Shown here one piece after another: positions 6,445-37,193 of a DNA stretch of 42,242 bases. Position 1 is the first letter of the stretch, and each line of letters starts with the position of its first letter. The notes beneath the pieces are model-generated. The model worked only from the letters and a program-made list of their open reading frames with translations. It did no database searches and had not been told where the DNA came from. This DNA is from Terriglobales bacterium. GTDB lineage: Bacteria > Acidobacteriota > Terriglobia > Terriglobales > Acidobacteriaceae. Position numbers and translations under genes: made by a program. The stretch lies in contig DATIYR010000125.1 in NCBI GenBank assembly GCA_035517535.1, forward strand, positions 1 through 42,242. The letters are read 5' to 3'.

Positions 6445-6458
6445 TAAGTTGCAGTTTT

Positions 6459-8027: not shown

Positions 8028-8085
8028 TGGACCTTTTTGGACTAGAAGACAAACGTTGCGGCAAAGCTGAACTAACATATTGGAC

Positions 8086-9630: not shown

Positions 9631-9650
9631 CGCTCCCGCCTGCTCGAACA

Positions 9651-18300: not shown

Positions 18301-20953
18301 GATAACGCAGCTCCGAGGCCAAATCGCTTATGGCAGGAAATGCGCTGTTGCCCGCCGCAATGATGCGATCGAGAAGCGTTCTTTGCTCTTCGCCGGGTTC
18401 GAAGCCGCGGCGCTCGGCATCCTGCAATCGCCGTCTGAGCAGGCCGAGGACTGGCGCAACCTGCTGTTCTGTACGCTGATGAGACTTGTAGATCCACAAG
18501 AGAGCTCGCTCAAGCTGAGTAGAGCGACGCAAACTGTACACTCCGTAATGCGCCAGCGCCCGCCGCAGCGCCTCCACAAAATATGCAGGCAGCCCTTCGC
18601 CTTCGGTATCAAGACTGCGCAGAAAGGCGAAAAGAAAGGCTTCAGAGGTGGGCGCTTCGCCGCTCGAACGGTGGTCCACTTCAGGTTCGCGCTTAAACAA
18701 GGAGCAAACGTCTACGAAAATATTCAGGATTTCATCCTCGGCATCGCGCAGTTCCTCGCCCTCGATTGGCCGGGTCTTGGTCCACTCTGCAAGCTGATTC
18801 GCCGTTTGCCTGGGATCGACATCAAATCCCAGCATCAGCTGCCGCAGCTCATCCAACGCTTGACGATAATCAGCGGGAATCAAGTCTGGAACTTCTTCCC
18901 CGCAATACGACGCGCCAAAGTGAATGCGTTCTTCCTGGCCTTCAGGCTGTGCTGAGAGTTCGGCATCAATTTGAAACAGCGGCGCGCCAGTATCAACCTG
19001 CACATTGGGGATGATCATCACTTGGCGCACTCTTCCTGAGAATGGCGCCACCACCTGCATCTCCATCTTCATGGCTTCGAGCATCGCAAGCCGGCCGCCG
19101 ACAGAAACCGTATCGCCTGCCTTGACTGCGATGGAAGCCACCACGGCGGGAGCAGGTGCATGCACAATGCCACCGTCATCGCGCTCGATCTGATGCGAGA
19201 CGCCGTCCACCTCAATCCGATAACTCAATCCGTGGATGACCGAAACCACGTGGAAACGGCGGCCAAATGCTGTAAGCCAATGCTCATATTGGCCGAGGCG
19301 ATCGACTTCGACTTCGATGCGAGAGCGATCGACCTCTATGCGGTAATGCTGCGGGCCCACGCGAAAGACGTTGAGTGAATAAGAATGTCCGCCATGACGC
19401 AGTTCGGCAGTGCGTCCTATTTCGCTCCGTATCTGCGGCCTTCCACGCACCGCCGATGCATAGAACTGCGACTGCTCGATCGCGAGTTGAGCTTCGTAAG
19501 ATTCGATTGCGGCATGCAGGAGCGCGATATCTGCGTATTGCCGCGAAACATGATTTCCACTCGCCGCCAGCTGGTCCAGCCAGCCAATGTTCACATCCGC
19601 GCTTTTCACTTCCTTGCGGCTCAAGAGCTCCAACAGAAATGCTTTATTGCTGGCCCCACCTTTGATCACGACCACGCTCTCGCGCAGCACACGTTGCAGA
19701 CGGGCCAGGGCTTCGTTCCGGCTCTGACCATGGGCGATGATCTTGGCGATCATGGAATCGAAATCGGCGGGTACACAGTCGCCCTCGCCCACTCCCGTGT
19801 CCACCCGGATTCCGGCTCCGGTAGCAATCCGGAACCGCTCAACCACACCGGGCGCGGGCGCAAAACCATTTTCCGGATCTTCCGCGTTGAGGCGAACTTC
19901 AATCGCATGACCTTTTGTGGGCGGCGGGTCTCCGACCAGGGTTCCGCCACGTGCCACATGAATTTGCAGTTTGACGAGATCGAGCCCAGTTGTGCATTCT
20001 GTGACCGGATGTTCAACCTGCAAACGAGTATTCATTTCCATGAATGAGAAACTTTGTGATTCCGGCTGATACAGGAACTCGACTGTGCCCGCGTTGTAAT
20101 AATGTGCTGCCTTCGAAAGGCGCACCGCAGCCGCGTGCAGCTCCTCGTCCTGCTCCGGGGTGAGCATTGGGGATGGCGCTTCTTCAAGAATTTTCTGGTG
20201 CCGTCGCTGGATGGTGCAGTCGCGTACGCCCGCGGCCCACGTATTTCCAAAATGATCGGCGATCACCTGCACCTCAACGTGGCGCGCACCCTCGATCAGC
20301 CGTTCCATGAAAACCGTTGGATCGCCAAACGCTTTAAAAGCTTCGTTGCGGGCGCATTCGAATGCGTGAGGAAGTTCGTGCGCGAAATGAACCTGGCGGA
20401 TACCGTGCCCGCCGCCGCCAGCTGTCGCTTTAATAAGGAGCGGAAAACCCAGGCGTTCTCCTTGACGCAAGGCGTCATCCACGGTTTCAACCGGGCCGCC
20501 GCTCCAGGGTGCAACCGGTAGTTGCGCCTGTTCGGCCAGGAGCTTCGAGGCGATTTTGTCACCAACGTGACGCATGGTGTCGCCGTCAGGCCCAATGAAC
20601 ACAATGCCCATCTCGCGGCACAAATCGGCAAATGCAGCATGCTCGGCAACAAATCCCCATCCCACCCACACTGCCTCAGCGCGCGTCGCGGCGAGCGCTC
20701 TCTCCAGCCTCCCGTAATCAACGTACGCGCTTTTCGGCTGGCGGGTGCTCGCATCCAGAACCTGCGCTGGGCCGAGGCTAACGGCTTCATCAGCCTCGCG
20801 TACGTACATTGCGTAACGGTCGGGATCGGTGAACAGCGCGATGCTGTGCAAAGACGCACCGCGCTCCTGATTGAACTCACGCGCTGCATGGATGAATCGC
20901 ATGGCAGGTTCGCCACGATTCACGATTGCGACGCGTTTGAATTCGTAATTCAT
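15353..20953 (-). CDS. Single-chain multidomain acetyl/acyl-CoA carboxylase (BC - BCCP - central region - eukaryote-type carboxyltransferase)
   Basis: 1866 aa.
- N-terminal biotin carboxylase: MNYEFKRVAIVNRGEPAMRFIHAARE.., ATP-grasp.
- Biotinyl motif LEAMKMEM: Lys629, minus-strand AAG at 19067-19069.
- C-terminal CT: ..LANLSGFDGSPESMRRLQLEYGAEIGRAVVNFKGPMVFCVISRYHGGAYVVF.. resembles the homomeric eukaryotic ACC CT. Confidence 0.9.
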   Translation of the reverse strand: MNYEFKRVAIVNRGEPAMRFIHAAREFNQERGASLHSIALFTDPDRYAMYVREADEAVSLGPAQVLDASTRQPKSAYVDYGRLERALAATRAEAVWVGWGFVAEHAAFADLCREMGIVFIGPDGDTMRHVGDKIASKLLAEQAQLPVAPWSGGPVETVDDALRQGERLGFPLLIKATAGGGGHGIRQVHFAHELPHAFECARNEAFKAFGDPTVFMERLIEGARHVEVQVIADHFGNTWAAGVRDCTIQRRHQKILEEAPSPMLTPEQDEELHAAAVRLSKAAHYYNAGTVEFLYQPESQSFSFMEMNTRLQVEHPVTECTTGLDLVKLQIHVARGGTLVGDPPPTKGHAIEVRLNAEDPENGFAPAPGVVERFRIATGAGIRVDTGVGEGDCVPADFDSMIAKIIAHGQSRNEALARLQRVLRESVVVIKGGASNKAFLLELLSRKEVKSADVNIGWLDQLAASGNHVSRQYADIALLHAAIESYEAQLAIEQSQFYASAVRGRPQIRSEIGRTAELRHGGHSYSLNVFRVGPQHYRIEVDRSRIEVEVDRLGQYEHWLTAFGRRFHVVSVIHGLSYRIEVDGVSHQIERDDGGIVHAPAPAVVASIAVKAGDTVSVGGRLAMLEAMKMEMQVVAPFSGRVRQVMIIPNVQVDTGAPLFQIDAELSAQPEGQEERIHFGASYCGEEVPDLIPADYRQALDELRQLMLGFDVDPRQTANQLAEWTKTRPIEGEELRDAEDEILNIFVDVCSLFKREPEVDHRSSGEAPTSEAFLFAFLRSLDTEGEGLPAYFVEALRRALAHYGVYSLRRSTQLERALLWIYKSHQRTEQQVAPVLGLLRRRLQDAERRGFEPGEEQRTLLDRIIAAGNSAFPAISDLASELRYRYFDQPLFERARKEVYDKVKQQLARIAANPEAPDRHEQVRELVECPQPLVGLLSSRFASSSMGMRKLMLEAIMWRYYRIRALENFRSLDIDGRCYAAAEYEHEGRRIHMFTTHTEYAQLANAATGICGLLKDVPEDHDIVLDFYSWHEGQPAEADCTQQELRTVLAGIKFPRLIRRIVVEVASSVHAQGAGGMQHFTFRPAGTNGYEEEKLVRGIHPMMAKRLHLWRLSNFNIERLPSVEDVYLLHCVARENPKDERLIACAEVRDVTPVRDESGRILKLPHLERMFTEALASIRLFQSSRPVNRRLWWNRILLYIWPPLNLQREELRDIVRRLTPATQGLGLEQVVVRTRIPNPATGEVRDMVVRISSPAGRGMVTSFRPADQQLEPMKPLDEYKQKVVRMRQRGMIYPYEIVNLITPPREHARSEFPPGEFMEHDLGAENRLVPVSRPYGQNKANIIAGVIRNFTTRYPEGMTRVLLLGDPSKDLGALAEPECRRIIAALDLAEEMKVPLEWFPISAGAKISMSSGVENMDWIARALRRLVEFTQAGGEVNLIINGINVGAQPYWNAEATMLMHTRGILVMTPKAAMVLTGKRALDYSGGISAEDNQGIGGYDRIMGVNGQAQYWAQDLDEACQILFRHYEHTYVAPGERFPRRAETADLRERDVRDYPHAGGEEGFTRVGEILSDETNPGRKKSFDIRNVMLATMDQDHVPLERWAGMRAAETAVVWDSHLGGYPVCLIGLESRPLPRFGFVPADGPDQWTSGTLFPQSSKKVARAINAASNNRPVVVLANLSGFDGSPESMRRLQLEYGAEIGRAVVNFKGPMVFCVISRYHGGAYVVFSRALNQQLEVAALEGTYASVIGGAPAAAVVFASEVEAKARKDPRLQPLAEAMAKAEGAEKGRLRAQWDELFAKVHSEKLGETAAEFDRVHSVHRALQVGALDCIIPPGKLRPYLIGAIERGIAREEESAKQEIAAVQAA

Positions 20954-20985: not shown

Positions 20986-23900
20986 TTACGCCGCTACAGC
21001 TTCAAGAGCCATCGCGCCTTGAAGTTTCGCAAGACGCTCCTTATCAACGGCGTTGGGAACGGCCACTGTGCGATAACCTTTTAGCCGCAGATAGCAGTTT
21101 CCTTTCCCATCTACGATTTCAGCATCGAATTTGTCTTCGTCAGGAACTCGCGTTACTACTGCATATAACGGATCGGCAACGTTTTCACGCGCGCCGAATA
21201 GCGAAACTGAATCGATATGAAGCGGCAAACCCATCCAGCCCTGCACTCCCATTTCCCAAACGCCGGCAGTCTGGAAGCACAACTCAATCAGACGCGGCGC
21301 GGCTACGGTTTGCGACTCCGGCGGCACATGATTGTTGGGCAGATTGTTCGCCATCAATCCGATTATGCGATCACCGTCCCACCAGGCTTTTTCGATCACC
21401 TGATACGCAGGGCCGTGAAAGTAAAGTCCGTAAATTTCTTTCCGGTTAACGACATTTCCGGAAGGCGTCCCGATTTTTGGCACGCTCGACGGCTTCTGCG
21501 TTTCTCTGGTCAGCCGCACGCGCGCTGTGAAATGAGTGGTGACTTGCGGCTCAATCTGATTCGGCAGTGAACGGCACCCGATCAACTTGCAATCGGCAAC
21601 CAGTCCGTCGCCATCGGGATGAATCACGTTCTCAACTGTTACGGTTCGCGGTTCATTGCGATAAAACTTGAACGGCGTGTGATAGTCGACCTGCTCGACC
21701 GATTCAACATGCCATCCGGGTAGTGGCACGAGAGCGGCTTCTGTAAATGCCTCTACGCCCATCACACCCGGAAGCACGGGCGTGCCGTCGATCTGGTGAT
21801 CGTAGAGGAACGGCTGAACTTTGGGATCGAGAGTCGTCTTAATCGTCAATGGAGTCAAGACGCCTGAGCTCGCTATTTTGCCGAGCATAGGCTTCCGAGT
21901 CGCCGAAGCTTTTTCGCCGTTTGTTGCGGCGAGATCGATTCCGCCGCTGTCGTCCCATTCCTTCGCAAGAACGCCGAGCCTGTTTGCGATCACGACTTCG
22001 CCACGCGTGCCGCCTTCCGTCACTTCGCGCCGAACAATCGGGACTCCCGCTTCAGGCGGCAACATGTCGATGCCCGCCGCTTCCATGATCTTGGGGATCG
22101 ATCCGCGCGAGGCCATGCCGACTCCGCCCCATGCAGTCCAGTCAATAGCAATGCCGCGCGTCTGGAGACGGGTCGTGCGGAAGCTCGATGTAATCTTGCA
22201 AAGCAGATCATTGGCTGCGCTGTAATCGGTTTGGCCGGAATTGCCTAAGCGCCCGGCAATGGAACTAAACACGACGGTCGCTGCGAGTGGCATGTTGCCG
22301 ATCGCACGCAGCAGGTTGAAAAAGCCGTCGCTCTTCACGTCAAAAACGAAATCGAACTCAGCCGGCTGTTTTTCGGAAAGAGGCCGGCTACGCTCGATTC
22401 CCGCCGCGTGCAGCAAGAAGTCAACTCGTCCGCTGTGATCGCGCACCTCGCGAATGATCCTTTCAACCGCCTCAGCATTCGTGAGATCAACGCTGAAGTA
22501 TTTCGCGGTTCCGCCTGCCGCGCGCACCGCATCGATTGCAGTTTGCGCGGCGTGCGCCCGTTCCAGCGCCGCGAGTTCCTTCTCCATCATCACCGGAGTG
22601 GCACGCTCTCCGCGCGCCTGTATACGCGAGAAGAGTTCGCGCTTCAGCGCTTCCCTATCGCTGACGAATAGCTTAAGGTCAGGATTGTTTGGATCGGGTT
22701 CAGGCACAACGTCGAGAAGATAGAACGTGCCTCCAGAAGCCGCCGCCAGATCGGCCGTAATGGCGGAAACAATGCTTCCGGCCGCACCCGTGATTAACAA
22801 AACCGTGTTTTCATCGAGTGCGATGCCTGGCTGGCCATCGGCCGCAGGTTGCTCTTCGAGTCCGATCGTCCAGCGCAGCTTATTTTTGTAGCCTATTTCG
22901 ATCGCGCCGGGATCACACAAAGTTTCTTCAATCAGCAGCGCAGCGATTTCTTCCGGCTTGCACTCAATTTCAAAATCAACCGCCTTTACGAATGCATCTG
23001 GACGTTCCCGCTTATATGCCTTTGTGAACCCAACAACGCCTCCGCCGAGTGGGGCCGCTGCTCCGGCTGCATCGTAGCCGTGCTGGCCGCCGAGGCGCGT
23101 GGCTGAAACCAGGAACGTGCCTGGCTTGGCAATGTGCTCATAGAGCTTTCGCATAGTCGCGTACAGTAACTTCACTCGCATACGCACGGCCTCGTGCCAG
23201 GCGTTCAGATCCATCGTGGTGAGTTGGCCTTCGCTATCGAGCGCGGGCAACCAGTAGACTCCGTCTATTCGGCCGGCCATAGCCCAGTTCTCAATTTGAG
23301 TGACGATCGAGTCGGCAGTCGGCGCACTTTCGATCAACAAAACCTCGACTCCTTTTTCCCGCAGAGCTTGCGCCAGTTTCTGAGCAACGCCGGCTTTGTC
23401 GGGCATGACAATCACGCGCTTGCCGTGTTCGAGCTTCACGCCGCTTGGCTTGCAAATGTCGAGAGGTGGACGCAACATCGGTATCGGTACGCGCCGTGGC
23501 ACCTTGTTTGCAGCATCGAAATTCGCGGGCTCCGGGCGCGGTGTCTTTTTCCCTTCGACAGGTGCCGGCGCAGGCTTCCTATCCGCTTCTTCTTTCGCTG
23601 GAGCCGACGCCGATTGCCCTCCCGCCCTGTCCTGGGCGAACTTGATCACGTGCGCCAGCGTGGAAAAATCGCGCAGCTTCAGATTTTCATCGCGAGGAAT
23701 GTTGTACGACGCGCGCACCGCGGCAAACATCTCGGCTTGCTTCACGGTGTCGATTCCGAGATCAGCTTCAAGGTCGAGATCGAGATCCAACATCTCTTTC
23801 GGATAGCCGGTTTTTTCCGCGACAATCTCCAGCACTCTTTCCTTAATTGCCTCAATCGTGGGAGCAGTGCTGACGGGAGCATGTTGGGGTTTCGCCCTTT

Positions 23901-26900
23901 CTTGCACGCTTTCGGAAGTTATCTCACTCTTAGCAGCTGCCGGAGCAGCGGCAAGATCCGACCGCTTCTCATACACAAACCGAATTACGTGGCCCAGCGT
24001 CGGGTAATCGCGAAGCTTGCGGTTCTCGTCGCGGGGAATGTTATAGATCTCGCGGATCGCCGCAAACATCTCCGCTTGCTTCACCGTGTCGACGCCCAGA
24101 TCAGCTTCGAGATCAAGATCGAGGTCGAGCATCTCCTTCGGGTAGCCGGTCTTCTCGACCACCAGGTCGAGAATGCGTTCCTTCACGGCATCGCCGTTAG
24201 CAGGTGTAGTGGCGGTCGATTTGGCAGCAGCCGCGATCTCAGGTTTGGATTCCGATGTCTTGCTGACAGAGGGGGGCTCTTTCGGCTCAACTTTTATTGA
24301 ACTTGGTGGTGAGACGGCATTAGCAGAATCTGCCAAATCGGGCCGCTTCTCGTACACAAAGCGGATCACATGTCCTAACGTCGGGTAATCACGAAGCTTG
24401 CGGTTTTCATCGCGTGGAATGTTGTAGGTCTCGCGAATCGAGGCGAAAATTTCCGCCTGCTTCACGGTATCGACGCCCAGGTCGGCCTCAAGATCGAGAT
24501 CCAGATCGAGCATCTCCTTCGGATAACCGGTCTTCTCAACTACGAGCGCGAGAATGCGGTCCTTTACCGAATCTTCTGCGCTTCCTTTATTAGTAGGAGC
24601 CGCTTGGGGAAGCGGAACCGGCGGCGCCGCCGCAACCTTGACTTCAGCTTGCGGTTGCGCCTCGGCTACAGCGACGCTGGAAGCTTTCTGGATCGCCGGA
24701 GTCGCAGATACCTGCGCCACCGGTTTTACAACAGCGGTCTCGATCAAGATCGCTGGTTTCGCCTTAACCGCGGGCAAAGGCACTGCGTCGGCGTCCTTTG
24801 TCACATGAGCACCTCGCGCCGCTTCATCACGCACCCGCAGCGTGCGATGAACCACTTCCAAGTCGGCATTCTCATGCCCGGCCAATCTGCTGAGCCACTT
24901 CGCCCACGCTTCCTGGTCGGCTATTCGATAGCTATAGCCCAAAGCCTTCGGGCTGCGGCGAACTCCATCTTTCGTAACAAACCAACGCAACAACGTCATG
25001 CTGATCTGCGAACCGAACCCGGCGCCCAGCCGCAACGCGTATTCGATCGGATACGCGCCGCCCTTCGACAAGTTCAGTGTGCCCAGCTCGGGGTCAACTT
25101 CTTTGAAGTTCGCCACCGGCGGAACGATTCCTGTCTCAAGCGATTTCACGGCCAGCACATCTTCAACGCCCGCACCCATGGCATGGCCGGTAAATCCTTT
25201 GGTGTTAGCGATCACGATCTGATCGGCGGCTTTGCCAAAGACTTGTCGCAGCGCATGAATCTCTGCCGCAGCGCTGCCACCGCGCGCCGGGGTGTAGGTT
25301 TCGTGCGAAACAAAAACCGTGCGCGGCGCGATTTGATTGCGATCGATTCCGCTGCGAGCTTCTGCGGTTGCGATCAGAGTTTCCATTACCTGCCCGATGT
25401 GTTGAACATCGAGGCGAGTGCCATGAAAAGCGCTATTGGCGGTAACCGCGCTCAGCACTTCACAGATGGGCTGGATGCCGCGACCGCGCGCTGCTTCTGC
25501 GCTCTCAACCACGAGCCCAGCCGCGCCCATTCCAATAATCATTCCGTGGCGTCGACGATCGAACGGCACCGCGGCTTCTTCGACCACTTCATCGGTGGCG
25601 GCGGCGCCGCTGGCCAGAAATCCCGCGCCAAACCAGTCGATCAGGTTGTCAGTGGTGATGTCGTCCGCGGCAATCACAATCACGCGGCTGCAGCGGCCAT
25701 CGCGGATCCAGTCCTCGGCCAATGCAATCGCCTGGGTCGTGCTGGCGCATGCCGAGTTGATTTGCGTGTTCGGCCCACGCGCACCAATGAACTCCGCGAA
25801 TTGCGAGTGCCCCATGGGCAGAACACGGAAAAGATAACGGCGATCAAATACGTAAGGCTGTCTTTCCAGTATGTCGCACAGTTCTTCGATTCGCCGATCG
25901 ATTTCCTGGGCAAGGATGGAGTAGCCGTTCGTTTCTGTAACGCGTGCCCGAAGGCTCTGCAGGCCGGCCAACTGCTCGCGGCGGGCGTGATCGGCGTAGT
26001 AGCGCGACATCTCGTCCGCAAATGAATCAAGGCCCGGGAAAGCGGAGGCAAAGATTACACCGGTTTCATCTCGCAGCGAGTCGGGCAGCACCCAGCGGTC
26101 AGGCAGCTTGGTGCCTTTGCTCGTGGTCTTGTAATGCAGCACCAGAGGAATACCCGCATCGCGCAGCGCGTCGAGACCAACGGCAATGGCCAGTTGCGTG
26201 TCGCGATCGAGTGAAGCGCGCCGGTCCGCGGAAACTCCGAATTCGTTCTCCAGATCAAATGCGCCGGCGCGTCCAGCCAACTTGATCACATCGGCCACGT
26301 CAGTGATGGTTTCAAAGTTTCCGCCGCCATCATCGCTCTTGACCAGGCGTGTAATGTGCTTGTCAAGCATGGCGCGACGGAAGCGCGTAGGAATGGCGTC
26401 GATGAACTGATCGCCACGCAGCAACCGCGCGATGTTCGAGTCATCGAAGATATGCTCGCTTCCGGGCAATCCAAGCGCAGCGCCGGTGACGACCACCGGT
26501 TCATCGTTTGCGGCTGGGGTTTTGCCGTGAGTGATTTGCCACCCACGCTCGAGCACTTCTTCGAACAAATGCCCAAGTTCGACGTAACGATCGCCGTTTG
26601 AAGACGGTGTTGAAAATGACTTAACTGCACCCGACGCTGCGGTTCTTTCTTTCTTCGCAGCGATCGCTTGGGAGGGAGCGGGCCTATACATTCGAGTTGT
26701 CTTCGGAGTTTCTGCCGAAGCGGTTGTGACAGCTACTTCGTTCGTATCTGGCGTCCCGCACCCCAATCCCGCTGCATACAGGCAGCACAGCGCCTGATTG
26801 AACGAAATAATGTCTCCGACCTTCGGATGATTCGTGAACAGCCAGGTCACATCGCCGCGCGGGCCAAGCACGTCCTCGGCAAATCCCTGCAGCGCTTTCT

Positions 26901-29583
26901 TCGGTCCGACTTCCACGAATACGCGAGCGCCTGCCTCATACAGCGTGCGCAATCCGGTCACGAACTGCACCGGCGATGCCACTTGCTGGGCAAGAATATC
27001 CAGCATCTGCGCCACGACATTCGCACCCGTGGGATAGAATTTTCCATTTGTGTTGGCAACAATTGGCAGCTTGGCCGGCTGCAGGTGCAAACGCTCGAGC
27101 ACGCGCCGCAAGGGTTCGCTCGCCGGTGCTACGATCGAAGTATGGAAGGCGTGACTCACCGGCAGTGGTGAAACTTCATAGCCCGCCTTCTGGAAGATCT
27201 CCATCGCCTGCTCGACGGCCTTGCTGGCGCCGCCAATTACTGATTGGTGTTCGCTGTTGATGTTGGCGATCACTACATAGCCATCGATCGCCTTGAGCAG
27301 ACGTTCGATTTCTTCGAGCGGCGCGAACACCGCAGCCATGCGGCCGTTATCCGCTACCGCGAACTGCGTCATTTCACGTCCGCGGGCGCTGACCGCTTCA
27401 AGCGCGTCGGCGAATGGCAGCGCATCGGCTGCGACCAACGCGCCGTATTCTCCCAGGCTGTGACCCATCGTAAAGTCAGGCGTGATACCGTATGCCGCGA
27501 GCAGGCGGGTCAACGCAAGATCCGCGGCGAGAACTGCCGGTTGCGTGATGGCAGTCTGCCGCAGGTCGTCTTCCGCTTTTGCCACTACCTCATCGTTGCC
27601 GCGATCAACAAAGATGAAGTCCGTGAGTGGTTTGCCCAGCAGCGGCATCATCACGCGATCGGCCTCAGCGAAGACTTCAGCAACGATGGGCTCCGAGTCG
27701 CACAGCGGCTTAAGCATGTTCACGTACTGTGAGCCCTGGCCTGGATACAGGAACGCAACTTTCTGTGAAGCACCGTGACCACGAAAGATGCCTTGCGCAC
27801 GAAGAGCTTTCCAGATGGCGGGCTGATTGGCAGCAAACGCCTTAAGCGCGCTTGCCGCTTTTGCGGACAAGTCTGCGGCGTCGGCATAATCGATGGCGAG
27901 CCGTTCCGGCGCATGCACGTCGGCTTCCGCCGGCGCGGATGGAGCAGGAACAATCCCCGATTTCGCATCTTTTTCTGCGGCGCGCAGGCGGTCGATGATA
28001 TCGCCTTCAGAAGTAGCTCCGATTACCAGTGCGCCGCGTAATGGAGACTTATAAGAAGATGCGGCGGAAGTTGACGCCTGTTTTGCGGTCATACCGCCTT
28101 CCACACTTTTCGCAGCAGCCTCAGTCACAGCGAACGGCGTCTTTCCGTTCCCATTCAACCTGTGTGGGATGTATTCCTCGAGCACGGCATGAAAATTCGT
28201 TCCGCCGAATCCAAAAGCGCTCAAACCGGCACGGCGCACGCCATCCGGAGGGACCGTCCACGCCTTCAGCTCGGTGTTGACGTATAGTGGCGAATGCGCG
28301 AAATCGATGTCCGGATTCGGGTGCTCGCAGTGCACGCTCGGCGGCAGCACTTTATCGTGCAGAGCAAGTGTGGCTTTGAGGAATCCCGCTGCTCCAGCCG
28401 CGCCTTTCAAATGTCCAAAGTTCGACTTCACAGACCCGAGCCCAACCAAGTGGGCCGGCAAATGATAGGTGCTGAGCACTTCGGCCAGGCTCTGTACTTC
28501 GACCACATCGCCTACGCGTGTTGACGTTCCGTGGCCTTCAAAGTAAGTCGCCGTCGCGGGTGACAACCCTGCGTTTTGCCATCCGCGTTCAACCGCGAGC
28601 TTTTGGCCAATGGGATTGGGCGCAGTAATTCCTTTCCCTTTTCCATCACTTGAGCCACCCATGCCGCGCAGCACCGCGTAAATTTTGTCGCCGTCGCGCT
28701 CAGCATCGGCGAGCCGCTTCATCAGAAAAAGTGCGGCGCCTTCGCCCATCACGAATCCGTCAGCACCTTCCGCATAAGGACGTGTCCCCGTTGCCGAGAG
28801 GGCGCCAATCTTGCAGAACTTGACGAACGTTGACGCACCCATGTTGCGATCGATACCGCCGGTGACTACCGCATCGAAATCTTTTTCGACCAGACCCTCG
28901 ACGGCCGAACTCATCGCCGCCATGGCTGAAGCGCAGGCGGCGTCGCAGATGTAATTCGGTCCGTGAAAGTTGAAAACGTTCGCGATTCTTCCGGCAATGC
29001 AGTTCGAGAGTTCTCCCGGCATGCTGTCTTCGGTGACTTCGGGAAGATATTTGGCCATGCGCTCGTGTAATTCGCGGGTAATCTCTTTGCGCAACTCTTC
29101 CGGCAGATTCGCGAAGCTGGTGACCCCTGACAGCTCGCGAGCGTACTCAGGAAAATAAATGCGGAGCGAAGTCAGATAATGCTTTTCGCCAGCCATAGCG
29201 TTGCCGAGAATCACCGCCGTGCGGTCCGGATTCAGCGGGCGATTGGGATAGCCGAAATCTTCGAGCGCCTGGCGAGTGCAGGCAATCGCCCATTTTTGCG
29301 CACCATCCATCGCGTCAACCACACGCGGTGGGACGGGCAAATGCCACTTGATCGGGTCCCACGTGAACTCGCGCACCCAACCGCCGATTTTCGAATATGT
29401 CTTATCAGGGGCTGCGGGATCGGGATCGTAATAAAGCGCCGGGTCCCAGCGTTTGGGATCAACTTCGGTTACGCTGTATCGTCCGTTCTTGATGTTTTCC
29501 CAAAACGCAGAGACATTTGGCGCATCGGGCAGAACGGCACCAAGCCCGACGATGGCGATGGCTCGGTATGAAGTGTTTTCCAT
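20986..29583 (-). CDS. PUFA-synthase (PfaA)-like iterative type I polyketide/fatty-acid megasynthase: KS-AT-KS-ACP-ACP-ACP-KR-DH
   Basis: 2865 aa. AGGAG Shine-Dalgarno 7 nt upstream of the ATG. Domain motifs are listed in the sub-features below. No ER, TE or MT domain recognised. Confidence 0.95.
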   Translation of the reverse strand: MENTSYRAIAIVGLGAVLPDAPNVSAFWENIKNGRYSVTEVDPKRWDPALYYDPDPAAPDKTYSKIGGWVREFTWDPIKWHLPVPPRVVDAMDGAQKWAIACTRQALEDFGYPNRPLNPDRTAVILGNAMAGEKHYLTSLRIYFPEYARELSGVTSFANLPEELRKEITRELHERMAKYLPEVTEDSMPGELSNCIAGRIANVFNFHGPNYICDAACASAMAAMSSAVEGLVEKDFDAVVTGGIDRNMGASTFVKFCKIGALSATGTRPYAEGADGFVMGEGAALFLMKRLADAERDGDKIYAVLRGMGGSSDGKGKGITAPNPIGQKLAVERGWQNAGLSPATATYFEGHGTSTRVGDVVEVQSLAEVLSTYHLPAHLVGLGSVKSNFGHLKGAAGAAGFLKATLALHDKVLPPSVHCEHPNPDIDFAHSPLYVNTELKAWTVPPDGVRRAGLSAFGFGGTNFHAVLEEYIPHRLNGNGKTPFAVTEAAAKSVEGGMTAKQASTSAASSYKSPLRGALVIGATSEGDIIDRLRAAEKDAKSGIVPAPSAPAEADVHAPERLAIDYADAADLSAKAASALKAFAANQPAIWKALRAQGIFRGHGASQKVAFLYPGQGSQYVNMLKPLCDSEPIVAEVFAEADRVMMPLLGKPLTDFIFVDRGNDEVVAKAEDDLRQTAITQPAVLAADLALTRLLAAYGITPDFTMGHSLGEYGALVAADALPFADALEAVSARGREMTQFAVADNGRMAAVFAPLEEIERLLKAIDGYVVIANINSEHQSVIGGASKAVEQAMEIFQKAGYEVSPLPVSHAFHTSIVAPASEPLRRVLERLHLQPAKLPIVANTNGKFYPTGANVVAQMLDILAQQVASPVQFVTGLRTLYEAGARVFVEVGPKKALQGFAEDVLGPRGDVTWLFTNHPKVGDIISFNQALCCLYAAGLGCGTPDTNEVAVTTASAETPKTTRMYRPAPSQAIAAKKERTAASGAVKSFSTPSSNGDRYVELGHLFEEVLERGWQITHGKTPAANDEPVVVTGAALGLPGSEHIFDDSNIARLLRGDQFIDAIPTRFRRAMLDKHITRLVKSDDGGGNFETITDVADVIKLAGRAGAFDLENEFGVSADRRASLDRDTQLAIAVGLDALRDAGIPLVLHYKTTSKGTKLPDRWVLPDSLRDETGVIFASAFPGLDSFADEMSRYYADHARREQLAGLQSLRARVTETNGYSILAQEIDRRIEELCDILERQPYVFDRRYLFRVLPMGHSQFAEFIGARGPNTQINSACASTTQAIALAEDWIRDGRCSRVIVIAADDITTDNLIDWFGAGFLASGAAATDEVVEEAAVPFDRRRHGMIIGMGAAGLVVESAEAARGRGIQPICEVLSAVTANSAFHGTRLDVQHIGQVMETLIATAEARSGIDRNQIAPRTVFVSHETYTPARGGSAAAEIHALRQVFGKAADQIVIANTKGFTGHAMGAGVEDVLAVKSLETGIVPPVANFKEVDPELGTLNLSKGGAYPIEYALRLGAGFGSQISMTLLRWFVTKDGVRRSPKALGYSYRIADQEAWAKWLSRLAGHENADLEVVHRTLRVRDEAARGAHVTKDADAVPLPAVKAKPAILIETAVVKPVAQVSATPAIQKASSVAVAEAQPQAEVKVAAAPPVPLPQAAPTNKGSAEDSVKDRILALVVEKTGYPKEMLDLDLDLEADLGVDTVKQAEIFASIRETYNIPRDENRKLRDYPTLGHVIRFVYEKRPDLADSANAVSPPSSIKVEPKEPPSVSKTSESKPEIAAAAKSTATTPANGDAVKERILDLVVEKTGYPKEMLDLDLDLEADLGVDTVKQAEMFAAIREIYNIPRDENRKLRDYPTLGHVIRFVYEKRSDLAAAPAAAKSEITSESVQERAKPQHAPVSTAPTIEAIKERVLEIVAEKTGYPKEMLDLDLDLEADLGIDTVKQAEMFAAVRASYNIPRDENLKLRDFSTLAHVIKFAQDRAGGQSASAPAKEEADRKPAPAPVEGKKTPRPEPANFDAANKVPRRVPIPMLRPPLDICKPSGVKLEHGKRVIVMPDKAGVAQKLAQALREKGVEVLLIESAPTADSIVTQIENWAMAGRIDGVYWLPALDSEGQLTTMDLNAWHEAVRMRVKLLYATMRKLYEHIAKPGTFLVSATRLGGQHGYDAAGAAAPLGGGVVGFTKAYKRERPDAFVKAVDFEIECKPEEIAALLIEETLCDPGAIEIGYKNKLRWTIGLEEQPAADGQPGIALDENTVLLITGAAGSIVSAITADLAAASGGTFYLLDVVPEPDPNNPDLKLFVSDREALKRELFSRIQARGERATPVMMEKELAALERAHAAQTAIDAVRAAGGTAKYFSVDLTNAEAVERIIREVRDHSGRVDFLLHAAGIERSRPLSEKQPAEFDFVFDVKSDGFFNLLRAIGNMPLAATVVFSSIAGRLGNSGQTDYSAANDLLCKITSSFRTTRLQTRGIAIDWTAWGGVGMASRGSIPKIMEAAGIDMLPPEAGVPIVRREVTEGGTRGEVVIANRLGVLAKEWDDSGGIDLAATNGEKASATRKPMLGKIASSGVLTPLTIKTTLDPKVQPFLYDHQIDGTPVLPGVMGVEAFTEAALVPLPGWHVESVEQVDYHTPFKFYRNEPRTVTVENVIHPDGDGLVADCKLIGCRSLPNQIEPQVTTHFTARVRLTRETQKPSSVPKIGTPSGNVVNRKEIYGLYFHGPAYQVIEKAWWDGDRIIGLMANNLPNNHVPPESQTVAAPRLIELCFQTAGVWEMGVQGWMGLPLHIDSVSLFGARENVADPLYAVVTRVPDEDKFDAEIVDGKGNCYLRLKGYRTVAVPNAVDKERLAKLQGAMALEAVAA
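20989..21890 (-). other. PKS domain DH (polyketide-type double hot-dog dehydratase)
   Basis: FLYDHQIDGTPVLPGVMGVE (HxxxGxxxxP; His codon 21796-21798), later YGLYFHGPAYQ. Confidence 0.8.
22021..23420 (-). other. PKS domain KR (structural + catalytic subdomains)
   Basis: Rossmann motif LLITGAAGSIVSA (22741-22800). Catalytic Tyr in QTDYSAAN (codon 22222-22224). Confidence 0.85.
23626..24561 (-). repeat. Three tandem in-frame ACP-domain coding repeats (periods 381 and 339 nt)
   Basis: ..[DE]R[IV]L[ADE][LI]V[VA]EKTGYPKEMLDLDLDLEADLG[VI]DTVKQAE[IM]FA.. occurs three times, separated by Ala/Pro/Ser linkers. The DNA copies are roughly 80% identical by eye. Confidence 0.9.
24982..26502 (-). other. 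PKS domain KS2 (second, FabF/FabB-like ketosynthase with intact Cys-His-His)
   Basis: QINSACASTTQAIA (Cys1279, codon 25747-25749), VSHETYTPARGGSAAAE, ANTKGFTGHAMGAGVED. A long insertion lies ahead of the active-site Cys. Confidence 0.8.
26881..27765 (-). other. PKS domain AT (malonyl-CoA:ACP transacylase type)
   Basis: VAFLYPGQGSQY, GHSLGEYGA (Ser709, codon 27457-27459), VSHAFHT. Confidence 0.9.
28171..29565 (-). other. PKS domain KS1 (PfaA-type ketosynthase)
   Basis: DAACASAMAAM (Cys217, codon 28933-28935), EGHGTSTRVGD, KSNFGHLKGAAG. Ends GGTNFHAVLEEY. Confidence 0.9.
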
Positions 29584-29633: not shown

Positions 29634-31313
29634 TCACGCCGCCCGCTCAGCTTTAGCCGCGCGGCCATACAAAACGTCGGCTACATAATCCATATCTGTA
29701 ATCAAGCCAGCTTGCGCACTGTGCGTCGCGGGCAAATTCACTGTTAACTCAAATGCCGGTAATTCGGAGTTGCTCAGGCCGCCCGCCCCAATCAACCAAC
29801 GCAGACCACCCTCAGCAACTTTGAGCGCCGCATCGCGCGCACAAATCCTGCTGATCGCTGCCAGCCCGGCTTCATCAAATCGCCGGTTGGTTTTTTCGTT
29901 CAGTTTGTTTTCTGCCATCAGAGCTGCACGTCGCGCCAGACTGCCCGCGCATTCCGCGTAGGCGATCAACTCGCCGAGGCGAAGGAGAATGTGTTGATAG
30001 CGAGTAAGTCGTGCGACGCGCGTCTTCTCCATAATTTCCGCGAGCGCGTGCATCGCCAGCGCGGCATGGTCGGATCCAACTTTTGGATGTCGCCGATGCA
30101 ACTCTTCAAATTTCTTCGCCTGATCGTGATAATGCTGGCCACGTGTCTTCAAATGCGTCTGCCAGCGATCGCGGGCGATGGTCATCTCCATGATCTCGGA
30201 AGTGCCTTCGTAAATGATGGTGATGCGCACGTCGCGGCTGATCTTCTCCACCATGTACTCGTGCGTGTAGCCGTATCCGCCGAGCGCCTGAATGCTGGCC
30301 TCAGCCGCAGCATTCCCTGCTTCTGTCGCCATATACTTCGCGATCGCGCCTTCGGTATTGAGGCTGCCTTCGCCCGCGTCGATACGCTCGGCAGTTTCCT
30401 CGATGTAGGCACGCGCGGCTTCGAGTCGCACCACGTTGGGCACGATCAGCTTATGGGTGTAGCCTTGCTTTTCTGACAGCGGCGCGCCGGCTTGAATGCG
30501 CTTCGTCGAGTATGGGATGGCGCGATCGAGAGCCGACCATCCTGCGCCGAGACCAAATGCAGCCACCATCAGGCGCGTGTAGCCAAATACAGCCTGCGCC
30601 TGAATCAAGCCCTGACCTTCGACGCCTCCAACCAGTCGGTCCGCCGGAACGAAAACGTTATCGAGCGCCAGCGCCGCGGTGTTGCTCAGACGAATGCCGT
30701 GTTTATCTTCCGGCTCATCATGCGTGAAGCCTTTCAGTCCTTTTTCGAGGATGAACCAACTGGGACCACTCGGGGTGTTGGCCAGCACCGTGTACGCGTC
30801 AGCGATGCCGCCATTGCTGATCCATTGCTTGTTGCCGGTGATTTTGTAACCAACAATTTTGCCGTCTTCGATCACCCGCTCAGCCGTCGTGCGCAGCGCG
30901 CCCAGGTCACTACCGGCCTCGGGCTCTGTCGCGCCGTAGGCAAAAAGAATTCCTTCTTCCGCAATGTGCGACAGCCAGATCTTTTTTTGCTCCGGCGTGG
31001 CGCCGACGGTGATGGGATCGCTGCCGAGAAAGGTTGCAAGCACGGAAGTGGCGACGCCTAGATCGATGCGGGCCATCTCCTCGCACACGCAGTACACGTC
31101 GAAGGTGTTGCCGCCCATGCCGCCATACTCTTCGGGAATGAATAAAAGCTGAATTCCCAGCTTGTCCGGGCTGCACATGTGGTGGACCACATCGAGTGGA
31201 CATTCGTCTTTTTCGTCCAGCTCGATCAGGGTTTCGTCGGGCAGACGCTTTTTCGCGAATTCGCGCAGCGATTTCAAGCTCAACTTGAGTGTTTTGGCGG
31301 TAATCATTGTCAT
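29634..31313 (-). CDS. Acyl-CoA dehydrogenase with a C-terminal extension of about 170 aa
   Basis: 559 aa. ..[17 protein letters not shown].., ..[10 protein letters not shown].., catalytic-base region [12 protein letters not shown]. Starts 4 nt after the etfA stop. The ATG at 31307 is an alternative start with better Shine-Dalgarno spacing. Confidence 0.9.
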
Positions 31314-33095: not shown

Positions 33096-33097
33096 AA

Positions 33098-36868: not shown

Positions 36869-36876
36869 AAACTCTC

Positions 36877-37191
36877 CTATTTCTGCTCGAACGAATTCAT
36901 CCAGTTCAGCTCGCGAAACGAAAGCCGCGATGCCAGCTTCACCAGTTTGAGCGCTTTGTACACGTGCACGTTCACGCCAAGTAAAACCACCGTGATTCCT
37001 TTCTCCTCTGCCACGCATATGAACTCTTCCATGGCAGGAATGGCGCTGGCATTGATCCGGCGCACGGCTGAAAAATCCATCACAACCTCGCGAATATTGT
37101 CGGCCAGCATCTCGCTGGCTTTTTCCAACATTGAAGCTAGCTGCGCTTCGTCGAGATTTCGCAACACCGAAACTGTTGCCATAACATTCAT
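36877..37191 (-). CDS. STAS-domain protein (SpoIIAA/anti-sigma-antagonist fold)
   Basis: 104 aa. ..VVMDFSAVRRINASAIPAMEEFICVAEEKGITVVLLGVNVHVYKALKLVKLASRLSF.. follows the STAS consensus (lvlDlsgV.fiDSsg...l......g..l.l.gv...v...l...gl...f). Starts 2 nt after the adhE stop. Confidence 0.7.
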   Translation of the reverse strand: MNVMATVSVLRNLDEAQLASMLEKASEMLADNIREVVMDFSAVRRINASAIPAMEEFICVAEEKGITVVLLGVNVHVYKALKLVKLASRLSFRELNWMNSFEQK

Positions 37192-37193
37192 CC

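What the first reader, a model, noticed from the sequence alone, without database searches (positions are those of the whole stretch)
20986..29583. Non-canonical megasynthase architecture: KS-AT-KS-ACP3-KR-DH in one polypeptide, two apparently active ketosynthases, no ER and no TE
Seen:
- KS1 (Cys217, HGTST, KSNFGH) and AT (GHSLG) resemble PfaA.
- Between AT and the ACPs sits a second full KS. It has Cys1279 (NSACAST), a His in the unusual SHETYTP motif, and a FabF/B-like KGFTGHAMGAG.
- So it is not a Cys-less chain-length factor.
- KR and a PKS-type DH follow the ACPs.
- I found no enoyl reductase, thioesterase or FabA-type DH/isomerase domain, and no PfaB/C/D-like genes in the window.

Established: canonical PUFA synthases split KS-AT-ACPn-KR(-DH) in PfaA and KS-CLF-DH-DH in PfaC, with a separate ER (PfaD).

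Inference: this is a compacted or different secondary-lipid synthase. Its product (polyene, hydroxy/keto fatty acid, or a saturated chain if ER acts in trans) cannot be predicted from known types.
Basis: partly seen in the sequence, partly recalled or inferred. Interest (0 to 1): 0.68.

Follow-up and report, generated by a model that had tools for sequence, protein, structure and literature searches.

The report
Orphan two-ketosynthase "Type R" lipid synthase
The 8.6-kb gene really encodes a giant fatty-acid/polyketide-type synthase with two intact condensing domains, but it belongs to a widespread soil-bacterial family catalogued in 2011 ("Type R"). The family's product is still unknown, and its missing reductase seems to come from a dedicated neighbouring flavoenzyme.

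Summary
**Observation: confirmed.**
- ORF 20986-29583 (minus strand) encodes a 2865-aa protein with the domain order KS1-AT-KS2-ACP×3-KR-DH.
- It has no ER, TE or FabA-type domain.
- The 77%-complete genome holds no PfaD and no second PfaA/PfaC-like gene.

**KS2 looks catalytically competent.**
- It folds as a complete FabF-type ketosynthase.
- Its Cys1279, His1427, His1467 and Lys1462 are invariant across the family, so it is not a Cys-less CLF.

**The architecture is not new.**
- It is the "Type R" secondary lipid synthase of Shulse & Allen 2011 (KS-MAT-"CLF"-ACP3-6-KR plus PPTase).
- In Koribacter versatilis an ACC gene sits between the synthase and the PPTase, as it does here.
- The product is uncharacterised.
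- The family is large: at least 596 species genomes and 758 sequence clusters.
- It is patchy in Acidobacteriota (21 of 401 sampled genomes).

**New here: the slot upstream of the synthase.**
- A dedicated ~550-aa acyl-CoA dehydrogenase sat directly upstream in all 60 close loci, all 9 phylum genomes and 4 of 6 distant loci without a fused ER.
- In other clades an OYE-type ene-reductase gene or a fused PfaD-type ER domain takes its place.

**Best reading:** an iterative type I FAS-like system with enoyl reduction in trans, its own ACC and its own PPTase. In this lineage it sits beside wax-ester/TAG genes.

**Verdict:** an ordinary member of a catalogued family that nobody has characterised.

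The parts
20986..29583 (-). Megasynthase gene, 2865 aa: KS1-AT-KS2-ACP x3-KR-DH (Type R PfaA homologue).
   Evidence: - ORF and translation.
- Pfam domains.
- Best NCBIfam model is TIGR02813 PfaA at 923 bits, below its cut-off of 1010.
28141..29565 (-). KS1, PfaA-type ketosynthase (residues 7-481). Catalytic residues: Cys217, His351 and His391.
   Evidence: - Pfam ketoacyl-synt, Ketoacyl-synt_C and KAsynt_C_assoc.
- Motif positions.
- Matches PfaA model positions 8-922 together with the AT.
26884..27753 (-). Acyltransferase (residues 611-900) with GHS709LG and an HAFH motif, which predicts malonyl specificity.
   Evidence: - Pfam Acyl_transf_1.
- FabD model at 206 bits.
- Motifs in the translation.
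- Reading HAFH as malonyl-specific comes from general PKS knowledge, not from a test here.
24976..26505 (-). KS2, the second complete ketosynthase (residues 1027-1536). It has Cys1279, His1427, His1467 and Lys1462, plus a two-helix insert of about 100 aa.
   Evidence: - Family and PDB sequence matches.
- Catalytic residues invariant in alignment A1 and in 170 homologues.
- AF2 model with pLDDT 88.5.
- Foldseek matches whole FabF chains, TM 0.87-0.90.
23614..24570 (-). Three tandem ACP domains (residues about 1672-1990). The attachment position reads Thr (T1706, T1833, T1946) instead of Ser.
   Evidence: - Pfam PP-binding x3.
- Motif positions.
- Thr at this position in 169 of 170 homologues; the one exception has Ser.
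22114..22806 (-). Ketoreductase catalytic subdomain (residues about 2260-2490) with GAAGSI2266 and Tyr2454.
   Evidence: Pfam KR and adh_short; motifs.
21043..21891 (-). PKS-type dehydratase (residues 2565-2847) with H2596xxxGxxxxP.
   Evidence: Pfam PKS_DH_N and PS-DH; motif.
29634..31313 (-). Dedicated 559-aa acyl-CoA dehydrogenase with a C-terminal extension, 50 nt upstream of the synthase. Proposed trans-acting enoyl reductase.
   Evidence: - Pfam ACAD N, M and C domains.
- Best NCBIfam model is acryloyl-CoA reductase AcrC, below its cut-off.
- Adjacent in 60 of 60 close loci and 9 of 9 phylum genomes.
- Full-length orthologues at 47-66% identity in distant loci.
31318..33116 (-). EtfA (31318-32304) and EtfB (32304-33116), the electron-transfer flavoprotein pair.
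   Evidence: - Pfam ETF and ETF_alpha.
- Best NCBIfam models are AcrA and AcrB, below their cut-offs.
- Present in 55 of 60 close loci, but only in the window's own family in the phylum sample.
33098..35221 (-). Fe-S oxidoreductase, 707 aa, with two 4Fe-4S motifs and a CCG domain. Probable link between ETF and the quinone pool.
   Evidence: - Pfam CCG and Fer4.
- NCBIfam TfrB-, HdrD- and DsrK-like matches, all below cut-off.
- Present in 54 of 60 close loci.
15353..20953 (-). Single-chain acyl-CoA carboxylase, 1866 aa (BC-BCCP-central-CT), 32 nt downstream of the synthase. Probable malonyl-CoA supply.
   Evidence: - Translation and NCBIfam BC, BCCP and CT matches.
- Present in 50 of 60 close loci.
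- Also present in distant loci L096 and L116.
- Koribacter versatilis has the same layout.
14618..15334 (-). Sfp/HetI-type 4'-phosphopantetheinyl transferase (the PfaE counterpart).
   Evidence: - Pfam ACPS and a HetI-like NCBIfam match.
- A PPTase lies downstream or is fused in the distant loci.
13526..14605 (-). Hormone-sensitive-lipase-family alpha/beta hydrolase at the end of the array. Possible release or lipolysis enzyme. Not conserved in relatives.
   Evidence: - Pfam Abhydrolase_3.
- NCBIfam GESAG HSL match, below cut-off.
- Absent from the relatives checked.
35276..39857 (-). Lineage-specific upstream block: AdhE (37194-39857), a STAS protein (36877-37191) and a WS/DGAT acyltransferase (ORF 35276-37222; the true start is probably near 36868).
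   Evidence: - Pfam.
- AdhE scores 1134 bits, above its cut-off of 951; WS/DGAT scores 351 bits, above 310.
- The whole block is conserved in G179.
- WS/DGAT is seen in at least 24 of 60 close loci.

Best explanation
**What it is.** The gene is a member of the 'Type R' secondary lipid synthase family.

**How I think it works.** It most likely acts as an iterative, type I fatty-acid-synthase-like machine.
1. The AT loads malonyl units onto three tandem ACPs. The single-chain carboxylase encoded just downstream makes the malonyl-CoA. The downstream PPTase activates the ACPs.
2. Two catalytically competent ketosynthases carry out the decarboxylative condensations. KS1 is PfaA-type and KS2 has a FabF-like fold. 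They probably divide the work by chain length or by stage.
3. KR and the PKS-type DH take each beta-keto group to a trans-2-enoyl group.
4. The missing enoyl reduction is done in trans by the dedicated 559-aa acyl-CoA dehydrogenase encoded 50 nt upstream. In this lineage EtfAB and a membrane Fe-S protein feed it electrons.
5. The product would be a largely saturated acyl chain. In this organism it is probably passed to neutral-lipid (wax ester or triacylglycerol) metabolism.

**Shown:**
- the domain order
- intact and invariant catalytic residues in both KS domains
- family membership
- conserved gene partnerships

**Inferred:**
- that both KS domains condense
- the direction of the ACAD reaction
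- the product
For: **Family membership**
- The architecture and the synthase-ACC-PPTase order match the published Type R description, including the Koribacter layout.

**KS2 competence**
- Cys1279, His1427, His1467 and Lys1462 are invariant in 14 members that share 42-64% identity.
- The same motifs occur in all 170 large homologues.
- The predicted structure covers the whole FabF fold.
- KS1 and KS2 each form a clade with 100/100 support, and their subtrees are congruent. The pair has therefore been kept together since the family arose.

**Enoyl reduction in trans**
- The ACAD is adjacent in 60 of 60 close loci and 9 of 9 Acidobacteriota genomes.
- Full-length orthologues (47-66% identity) sit directly upstream in four distant loci.
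- One clade has OYE-type FMN oxidoreductase genes in that position instead.
- 11 of 60 diverse members carry a fused N-terminal NMO/PfaD-type ER.
- In the 3 fused-ER loci where the upstream region can be read, no ACAD lies upstream.
- Among curated NCBIfam models, the ACAD, EtfA and EtfB each score best against a subunit of the reductive acryloyl-CoA reductase complex. All three scores are below the cut-offs.

**Bulk lipid role**
- ACC genes recur next to the synthase in several phyla.
- WS/DGAT is adjacent here and in close relatives.
Against: - No member of the family has a known product or any biochemistry in the literature I could search.
- ACADs normally oxidise, and the ACAD-Etf-FeS trio is also a standard beta-oxidation module. 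Glyoxylate-shunt genes and a second ACAD lie nearby.
- Two distant loci (L092, L097) show no flavoenzyme next to the synthase.
- All ACPs carry Thr where carrier proteins normally have Ser. How they are loaded, or whether they are, is unproven.
- AdhE scores as an ordinary acetaldehyde/alcohol dehydrogenase.
- The AdhE-STAS-WS/DGAT block is lineage-specific. The link to neutral lipids is therefore weak for the family as a whole.
- The division of labour between KS1 and KS2 is only an analogy with the KS domains of PUFA synthases, recalled from memory and not tested.
Confidence: 0.5

Rival explanations
1. The system has no enoyl reduction. KS, KR and DH cycles build a conjugated polyene or a hydroxy/enoyl chain, as enediyne PKSE or aryl-polyene systems do. 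The neighbouring ACAD-Etf-FeS genes are ordinary beta-oxidation genes, or the ACAD desaturates or tailors the finished chain.
For: - The polypeptide has no ER domain.
- The genome has no PfaD.
- ACADs are normally oxidative, and the trio resembles a beta-oxidation module.
- Glyoxylate-shunt genes lie nearby.
- Two distant loci lack any adjacent flavoenzyme.
Against: - The ACAD is a co-evolving, full-length orthologue beside the synthase in several phyla that lack Etf/FeS neighbours.
- Its slot is taken by an OYE ene-reductase or a fused PfaD-type ER in other clades. This is hard to explain unless C=C reduction is part of the pathway.
- Dedicated ACC genes point to high flux rather than a trace pigment.
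Confidence: 0.2
2. KS2 is a non-condensing partner of KS1, as the 2011 'CLF' label implies. It would be a chain-length-determining, priming-decarboxylase or purely structural domain that pairs with KS1 as a pseudo-heterodimer.
For: - Shulse & Allen annotate this position as CLF.
- KS2 is very divergent: Pfam scores of 61 and 32 bits, and 22% identity to KS1.
- It sits on a long branch.
- Its motifs are unusual (HETYTP, GFGSQ).
Against: - The defining feature of a CLF or KSQ is loss of the active-site Cys. That feature is absent: Cys, both His and the Lys are invariant across the family.
- The fold is a complete FabF fold.
- This level of conservation of the catalytic set argues for chemistry, not scaffolding.
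Confidence: 0.15
3. KS2 performs one terminal Claisen condensation that joins two chains or adds a special last unit, in the manner of Pks13 or OleA. The product would be a very long, beta-keto or branched lipid rather than an ordinary fatty acid.
For: - The two KS clades are distinct and have co-evolved for a long time.
- Multiple ACPs could hold two chains.
- Acidobacteria make unusual long dicarboxylic membrane lipids (general knowledge, not tested here).
Against: - The family is present in only about 5% of sampled Acidobacteriota, so it cannot account for phylum-wide membrane lipids.
- KS2 keeps the full decarboxylative set (His-His-Lys) typical of elongating FabF enzymes.
- No direct evidence supports this reading.
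Confidence: 0.07
4. It is the PfaA subunit of a canonical PUFA synthase, and the PfaB/C/D partners lie in the unassembled quarter of the genome.
For: - KS1-AT and ACP-KR-DH match the PfaA model.
- The genome is only 76.6% complete.
Against: - The score is below the PfaA cut-off (923 against 1010).
- PfaA has no KS2.
- The genome shows no PfaD hit and no second PfaA-like hit.
- Complete relatives keep the same ACAD-synthase-(ACC)-PPTase module with no pfaBCD next to it.
Confidence: 0.03

Closest known systems
Type R secondary lipid synthase cluster (Shulse & Allen 2011, PLoS One 6:e20146; Koribacter versatilis Ellin345, Solibacter usitatus, Elusimicrobium minutum, Roseiflexus spp.)
   Same: - A single PfaA homologue with KS-MAT-second KS ('CLF')-ACP3-6-KR.
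- A PPTase gene downstream.
- An ACC gene between the two, as in Koribacter.
- An acidobacterial host.
   Different: Nothing in the architecture differs. The paper calls the second KS a CLF, whereas here it keeps Cys, His, His and Lys. The paper does not mention the conserved upstream ACAD, the C-terminal DH or the Thr-ACPs in the passages I read.
Canonical PUFA synthase PfaA-E (Shewanella, Photobacterium, Moritella; Schizochytrium)
   Same: - PfaA-like KS-AT.
- Tandem ACPs.
- KR and PKS-type DH.
- A separate PPTase.
- More than one KS in the system.
- ER acting outside the main subunit.
   Different: - No PfaB, no PfaC (KS-CLF with FabA-type DH x2) and no PfaD.
- The second KS is inserted between AT and the ACPs of the same chain and keeps its Cys.
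- The ER candidate is an ACAD rather than an FMN PfaD-type enzyme.
- The ACP attachment residue is Thr.
- With no FabA-type DH there is no route to cis double bonds.
FabF (beta-ketoacyl-ACP synthase II) of type II FAS
   Same: KS2 has the whole FabF fold (TM 0.87-0.90) and the Cys-His-His-Lys catalytic set.
   Different: - About 20-24% identity.
- A helical insert of about 100 aa.
- HETYTP instead of HGTGT.
- Embedded in a megasynthase.
- Forms its own clade apart from FabF and FabB.
Acryloyl-CoA reductase (AcrABC) and butyryl-CoA dehydrogenase/EtfAB complexes of clostridia
   Same: An ACAD plus EtfAB working in the reductive direction on an enoyl thioester. These are the best-scoring curated models for all three proteins here.
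   Different: - All three scores are far below the equivalog cut-offs.
- The ACAD here has a C-terminal extension of about 170 aa.
- It is paired with a megasynthase and a membrane Fe-S protein.
- The substrate would be carrier-bound.
- The direction of the reaction is untested.
Enediyne polyketide synthase PKSE (KS-AT-ACP-KR-DH-PPTase)
   Same: An iterative PUFA-synthase-like type I enzyme with KR and DH but no ER. Some family members also carry a fused C-terminal PPTase.
   Different: PKSE has one KS and one ACP and makes a polyene. It has no KS2, no ACAD partner and no ACC partner. This comparison rests on recalled architecture only.

Membership tests
Type R secondary lipid synthase (Shulse & Allen 2011) | One pfaA homologue with the domain order KS-MAT-second KS ('CLF')-ACP(3-6)-KR | tested here: met
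   Pfam order is KS, AT, KS, 3x PP-binding, KR, then DH. The definition was read in PMC3098273.
Type R secondary lipid synthase (Shulse & Allen 2011) | A downstream gene encoding a phosphopantetheinyl transferase | tested here: met
   An ACPS-family gene lies at 14618-15334 on the same strand, two genes downstream.
Type R secondary lipid synthase (Shulse & Allen 2011) | Koribacter sub-layout: an acetyl-CoA carboxylase gene between the pfaA and pfaE homologues | tested here: met
   The 1866-aa BC-BCCP-CT gene at 15353-20953 lies between the synthase and the PPTase.
Type R secondary lipid synthase (Shulse & Allen 2011) | Direct sequence relationship to the named type strains (Koribacter, Solibacter, Roseiflexus, Elusimicrobium) | tested here: inconclusive
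   The closest loci carry the names Sulfotelmatobacter, Terriglobia, Korobacteraceae, Bryobacteraceae and Solibacteraceae. The type-strain proteins themselves were not retrieved.
Canonical PUFA synthase, PfaA subunit (TIGR02813) | Whole-protein score above the curated cut-off | tested here: not met
   923.1 bits against a cut-off of 1010.1. The KS2 stretch has no counterpart in the model.
Canonical PUFA synthase system | Partner genes: PfaC (KS-CLF with FabA-type DH) and PfaD (FMN enoyl reductase) | tested here: not met
   The genome has no PfaD hit, only one FabA/FabZ-type gene, lying 7 kb from the FabD-like match on contig C53, and no second PfaA-like gene. The genome is 76.6% complete. Complete relatives show none beside the synthase.
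Chain length factor / KSQ (non-condensing KS partner) | Loss of the active-site cysteine (usually replaced by Gln) | tested here: not met
   Cys1279 is present and invariant.
Elongating beta-ketoacyl synthase (FabF/FabB-type thiolase fold) | Complete fold with the Cys-His-His triad and the conserved Lys | tested here: met
   - The sequence aligns to FabF.
- Foldseek TM is 0.87-0.90 over whole FabF chains.
- C1279, H1427, H1467 and K1462 are invariant.
- Catalytic activity itself cannot be tested with these tools.
Acyl-carrier protein (PP-binding) | Conserved Ser in the (D/G)xDS motif as the phosphopantetheine attachment site | tested here: not met
   All three domains read GxDT (T1706, T1833, T1946). 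Thr occupies this position in 169 of 170 homologues, and one homologue has Ser at the same position.
Acryloyl-CoA reductase complex AcrABC (NF042972, NF042970, NF042971) | Scores above the equivalog cut-offs | tested here: not met
   231 against 640, 151 against 600 and 125 against 475 bits. These are best hits only. The complex is used as a mechanistic analogy, not as membership.

The most novel reading that the evidence does not exclude
The Type R family is a self-contained, alternative bacterial type I fatty acid synthase that breaks three textbook rules at once:
- It has two active ketosynthases in one chain.
- Its carrier domains carry phosphopantetheine on threonine.
- Its enoyl reduction is done by an acyl-CoA dehydrogenase run in reverse on ETF or quinol electrons. 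Across lineages this enzyme is interchangeable with OYE-type and PfaD-type ene-reductases.
Probability: 0.25. Interest if true: 0.8.

Novelty: new member of a known kind. Interest (0 to 1): 0.45.

Why it matters
**Reach of the family.** It occurs in hundreds of soil and sediment species across several phyla. About one in twenty sampled Acidobacteriota carry it. No product or biochemistry is known for any member.

**What this analysis adds.** It gives a testable minimal unit: ACAD + synthase + PPTase, with or without ACC. It also gives three sharp questions:
- Do both KS domains condense?
- Does an ACAD serve as the enoyl reductase?
- Is threonine a cofactor attachment site?

**Payoff.** An answer would define a new route to bacterial lipids, possibly storage lipids in abundant soil bacteria. 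It could also widen the rules for carrier proteins and trans-acting reductases.

**For this window alone** the gene is an ordinary member of that family.

Tried and rejected
- **Canonical PUFA synthase: rejected.** The score is below the PfaA cut-off, and the genome has no PfaC or PfaD.
- **KS2 as CLF: rejected on the defining residue**.
- **KS2 as a recent duplicate of KS1: rejected.** The two share 22% identity, form separate old clades and have congruent subtrees.
- **Phylogeny against PfaC-KS, PfaC-CLF, HglE and PKSE references: not possible.** No reference sequences were available in the tools. Only E. coli FabF and FabB and the genome's own KAS genes served as outgroups.
- **KS1/KS2 pairing by structure prediction: not possible.** KS1-AT-KS2 is about 1540 aa, above the 1200-aa limit, and spliced constructs are not accepted.
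- **Terminator and promoter scan of the array: uninformative.** It found 18 terminator-like sites against 23 expected by chance, and none in the intergenic gaps.
- **Literature: no characterisation found.** Six searches found no study of any family member. Only the 2011 catalogue mentions the architecture.
- **AdhE as a dedicated fatty acyl reductase: neither supported nor excluded.** It scores as a standard AdhE. It is tightly linked to STAS and WS/DGAT here and in G179.
Full report
**1. Observation**

The window has one uninterrupted ORF on the minus strand at 20986-29583, encoding 2865 aa.

Pfam places the domains as follows:

| Domain | Residues |
|---|---|
| Ketosynthase (KS1) | 7-481 |
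| Acyltransferase (AT) | 611-900 |
| Second ketoacyl-synt N+C pair (KS2) | about 1260-1500 |
| Three PP-binding domains (ACP) | from 1675 |
| Ketoreductase (KR) | 2338-2486 |
| PKS_DH_N plus PS-DH (DH) | 2565-2847 |

No enoyl reductase, thioesterase or FabA family scores.

- KS1: Cys217, HGTST351 and KSNFGH386-391.
- AT: GHSLG707.
- KS2: NSAC1279AST, SH1427ETYTP and KGFTGH1467.
- The DH HxxxGxxxxP motif (H2596) and the KR Tyr2454 are also present.

**2. Is KS2 a real ketosynthase?**

- Against PDB sequences, KS2 aligns to FabF (best E = 1e-25) with Cys, His and His in register.
- Against NCBIfam, its best model is fabF at 147 bits, far below the cut-off.
- It shares 22% identity with KS1 over the whole thiolase fold. 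Both carry a helical insert before the active-site Cys.
- An AlphaFold2 model of residues 1027-1536 is confident (pLDDT 88.5, pTM 0.88).
- The model superposes on complete FabF chains (TM 0.87-0.90 normalised to the target, E = 7e-32). It has an extra two-helix hairpin of about 100 aa.
- In 14 family members that share 42-64% identity with it, Cys1279, His1427, His1467 and Lys1462 are invariant. So is the extended signature SHET.TP.R.G..AE.
- The same three motifs, at the same spacing, occur in all 170 large homologues examined.

A chain length factor is defined by loss of this cysteine, so KS2 is not one. Whether KS2 actually condenses is an inference.

**3. What family is it?**

- The best whole-protein model is PfaA (TIGR02813) at 923 bits, below its cut-off of 1010.
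- In a six-frame genome search, the PfaA model covers KS1-AT and ACP-KR-DH but has nothing for the KS2 stretch.
- The genome is 3.79 Mb in 447 contigs and 76.6% complete. It has no other PfaA-like gene, no PfaD and one FabA/FabZ-type gene, which lies 7 kb from the FabD-like match on contig C53.
- The literature search found one description of this architecture. [quoted passage not shown]
- They list it in Koribacter versatilis, Solibacter usitatus, Elusimicrobium minutum and Roseiflexus. In Koribacter an ACC gene separates the two genes.
- That is exactly the layout here: synthase, then a 1866-aa single-chain carboxylase, then a PPTase.
- No other paper in the library uses this domain string. 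No search found a product for any member.

**4. How common is it?**

- A word-indexed search found more than 3800 proteins of similar length that match the KS2 region. Those that carry a source name are called Terriglobales, Sulfotelmatobacter or Acidobacteriia.
- An exhaustive profile-free search of 50%-identity representatives found 758 clusters at E ≤ 1e-30. The KS2 unit sits at about residues 1000-1600 of proteins 2500-4000 aa long.
- Within Acidobacteriota it is patchy. It occurs in 21 of 401 sampled genomes, and in 6 of 26 listed genomes of the window's own family. It is therefore an accessory system, not housekeeping lipid synthesis.

**5. Variants in the family**

The sequences of diverse representatives show these variants:
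- 1-6 ACPs
- a fused C-terminal PPTase in at least 11 of 60
- extra N-terminal KS domains or ACPs in some
- a fused N-terminal NMO/PfaD-type enoyl reductase in 11 of 60

One 3592-aa protein reads ER-KS-AT-KS-ACP-KR-DH-PPTase in a single chain.

A maximum-likelihood tree puts all KS2 domains in one clade and all KS1 domains in another, each with 100/100 support. E. coli FabF and FabB and the genome's own KAS genes lie outside both clades. The KS1 and KS2 subtrees are largely congruent. The two domains have therefore travelled together since the family began.

I had no PfaC, HglE or PKSE reference sequences. A specific relationship of KS2 to PfaC-KS or PfaC-CLF therefore remains untested.

**6. 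The neighbourhood**

The synthase sits in an 11-gene, same-strand array from 39857 down to 13526. The inter-gene gaps I checked are at most 54 nt. The order is:

AdhE, STAS, WS/DGAT, Fe-S/CCG oxidoreductase, EtfB, EtfA, ACAD, synthase, ACC, PPTase, HSL-family hydrolase.

| Set of loci | What is conserved |
|---|---|
| 60 full-length loci from close relatives | ACAD directly upstream 60/60; EtfBA 55/60; Fe-S protein 54/60; ACC 50/60. WS/DGAT (at least 24) and PPTase (at least 20) are undercounted because the loci end there |
| 9 Acidobacteriota genomes with wider context | ACAD-synthase 9/9; Etf/Fe-S only in the window's own family (3 genomes); full AdhE-STAS-WS/DGAT block in one genome |
| 4 distant members (43-53% identity in KS2) | ACAD of about 550 aa directly upstream and PPTase downstream, one with a fused ACC |

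The ACADs in the four distant loci are full-length orthologues of the window's ACAD. They share 66, 56, 53 and 47% identity, and the match includes the C-terminal extension.

**7. The missing reductase**

- One distant locus has OYE-type FMN oxidoreductase genes in the slot directly upstream, instead of the ACAD.
- In the three ER-fused members whose upstream region can be read, no ACAD is upstream.
- Two loci show no flavoenzyme next to the synthase.

So three unrelated flavoenzymes that act on C=C bonds alternate at or before the N-terminus of the synthase. The simplest reading is that the pathway needs enoyl reduction, and that in this lineage the ACAD supplies it in trans.

Among curated NCBIfam models, the ACAD, EtfA and EtfB each score best against the corresponding subunit of clostridial acryloyl-CoA reductase. 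That complex is an ACAD-ETF pair that works reductively. All three scores are well below the cut-offs, so this is an analogy and not an assignment.

The direction of the ACAD reaction is the weakest step in the argument. The same trio is also a normal beta-oxidation module. Isocitrate lyase, malate synthase and a second ACAD lie in the window.

**8. Supply, activation and fate**

- *Supply.* ACC genes recur beside the synthase in several lineages. They appear as a single chain, as separate BC and BCCP genes, or as a carboxyltransferase gene alone, sometimes with BioY or a biotin ligase. This fits a flux-demanding lipid rather than a trace metabolite.
- *Loading.* The AT has the HAFH motif. General PKS knowledge associates this motif with malonyl loading.
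- *Release.* The hydrolase at the end of the array is not conserved. Release is therefore unresolved.
- *Fate.* WS/DGAT passes its family cut-off. AdhE scores as a bona fide AdhE. Their tight linkage here and in one relative suggests, but does not show, a link to wax-ester or triacylglycerol synthesis in this lineage.

**9. An oddity that bears on mechanism**

All three ACPs read DLG(V/I)DT(V)KQAE, with Thr at the canonical phosphopantetheine serine position. Thr is found there in 169 of 170 homologues. The single exception has Ser at the same position in all five of its ACPs.

The family has its own PPTase, either in the cluster or fused. Loading on Thr is the obvious hypothesis, but it is untested. 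Another first-stage note in this scan covers this point.

**10. Verdict**

- The claim of a novel architecture is not right. This is a routine member of the catalogued but uncharacterised Type R family.
- The report adds three things: the catalytic set of KS2 is invariant, KS1 and KS2 have co-evolved, and there is comparative evidence for a dedicated trans-acting ene-reductase.

My confidence in each step:

| Step | Confidence |
|---|---|
| Family membership | about 0.95 |
| KS2 is catalytically competent | about 0.75 |
| The ACAD is the enoyl reductase | about 0.5 |
| Saturated product that goes to neutral lipid | about 0.35-0.4 |

Earlier AI notes from this scan on other genomes reached the same Type R assignment. 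I had found it independently, and I do not count those notes as evidence.

Noticed in passing
window 23614-24570 (-); also P0184: All three ACPs have Thr at the phosphopantetheine-Ser position (T1706, T1833, T1946). Thr holds in 169 of 170 family homologues. The one exception, P0184, reads GIDSVK or GVDSVK (Ser) in all five of its ACPs.
   Followed up: partly
L090 (P0160), 182-10960: A 3592-aa family member has every function in one chain: NMO/PfaD-type ER, KS, AT, KS2, ACPs, KR, DH and a C-terminal PPTase. It would be a convenient single-gene construct for testing the family's product.
   Followed up: partly
L091, 6705-7906: In one distant locus, two adjacent OYE-type Oxidored_FMN ORFs (136 and 264 aa) lie directly upstream of the synthase, where the ACAD usually sits. 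They may be one gene split by a frameshift.
   Followed up: no
window 6537-9630: Isocitrate lyase (minus strand) and malate synthase (plus strand) lie about 4 kb beyond the end of the lipid array. Their listed ORFs overlap by about 365 nt. The ICL Pfam match starts only at residue 176, so the ICL start is probably further downstream than the ORF suggests.
   Followed up: no
window 41141-42242 (-): A second acyl-CoA dehydrogenase, of the ACAD9/VLCAD type by its C-terminal domains, runs off the window end upstream of the array. This points to fatty-acid catabolism genes close to the synthase.
   Followed up: no
window 36877-39857 (-); G179 (L098) 6140-10541: AdhE scores above the curated cut-off for a true acetaldehyde/alcohol dehydrogenase. 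Even so, it is packed tightly against a STAS-domain gene and WS/DGAT. The same three-gene block, at 84, 53 and 64% identity, precedes the synthase array in a complete genome of the same family.
   Followed up: partly
window 11392-13062 (+): An ABC1/UbiB-family atypical kinase gene converges on the end of the lipid array from the opposite strand. A protein kinase with a weak ABC1 match also lies near the synthase in distant locus L092.
   Followed up: no
L029, L063, L071, L083, L088: Several loci at 72-81% identity to this acidobacterial KS2 come from MAGs titled Steroidobacteraceae, Acetobacteraceae, Verrucomicrobiia, Actinomycetota or Mycobacterium. Three of them are on contigs of about 2-14 kb. 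These look like mis-binned acidobacterial contigs rather than transfers.
   Followed up: no
L116, 19133-26060: In an ER-fused member, a biotin-protein ligase, a 1941-aa single-chain carboxylase and BioY follow the synthase. That is a complete private malonyl-CoA supply line.
   Followed up: no
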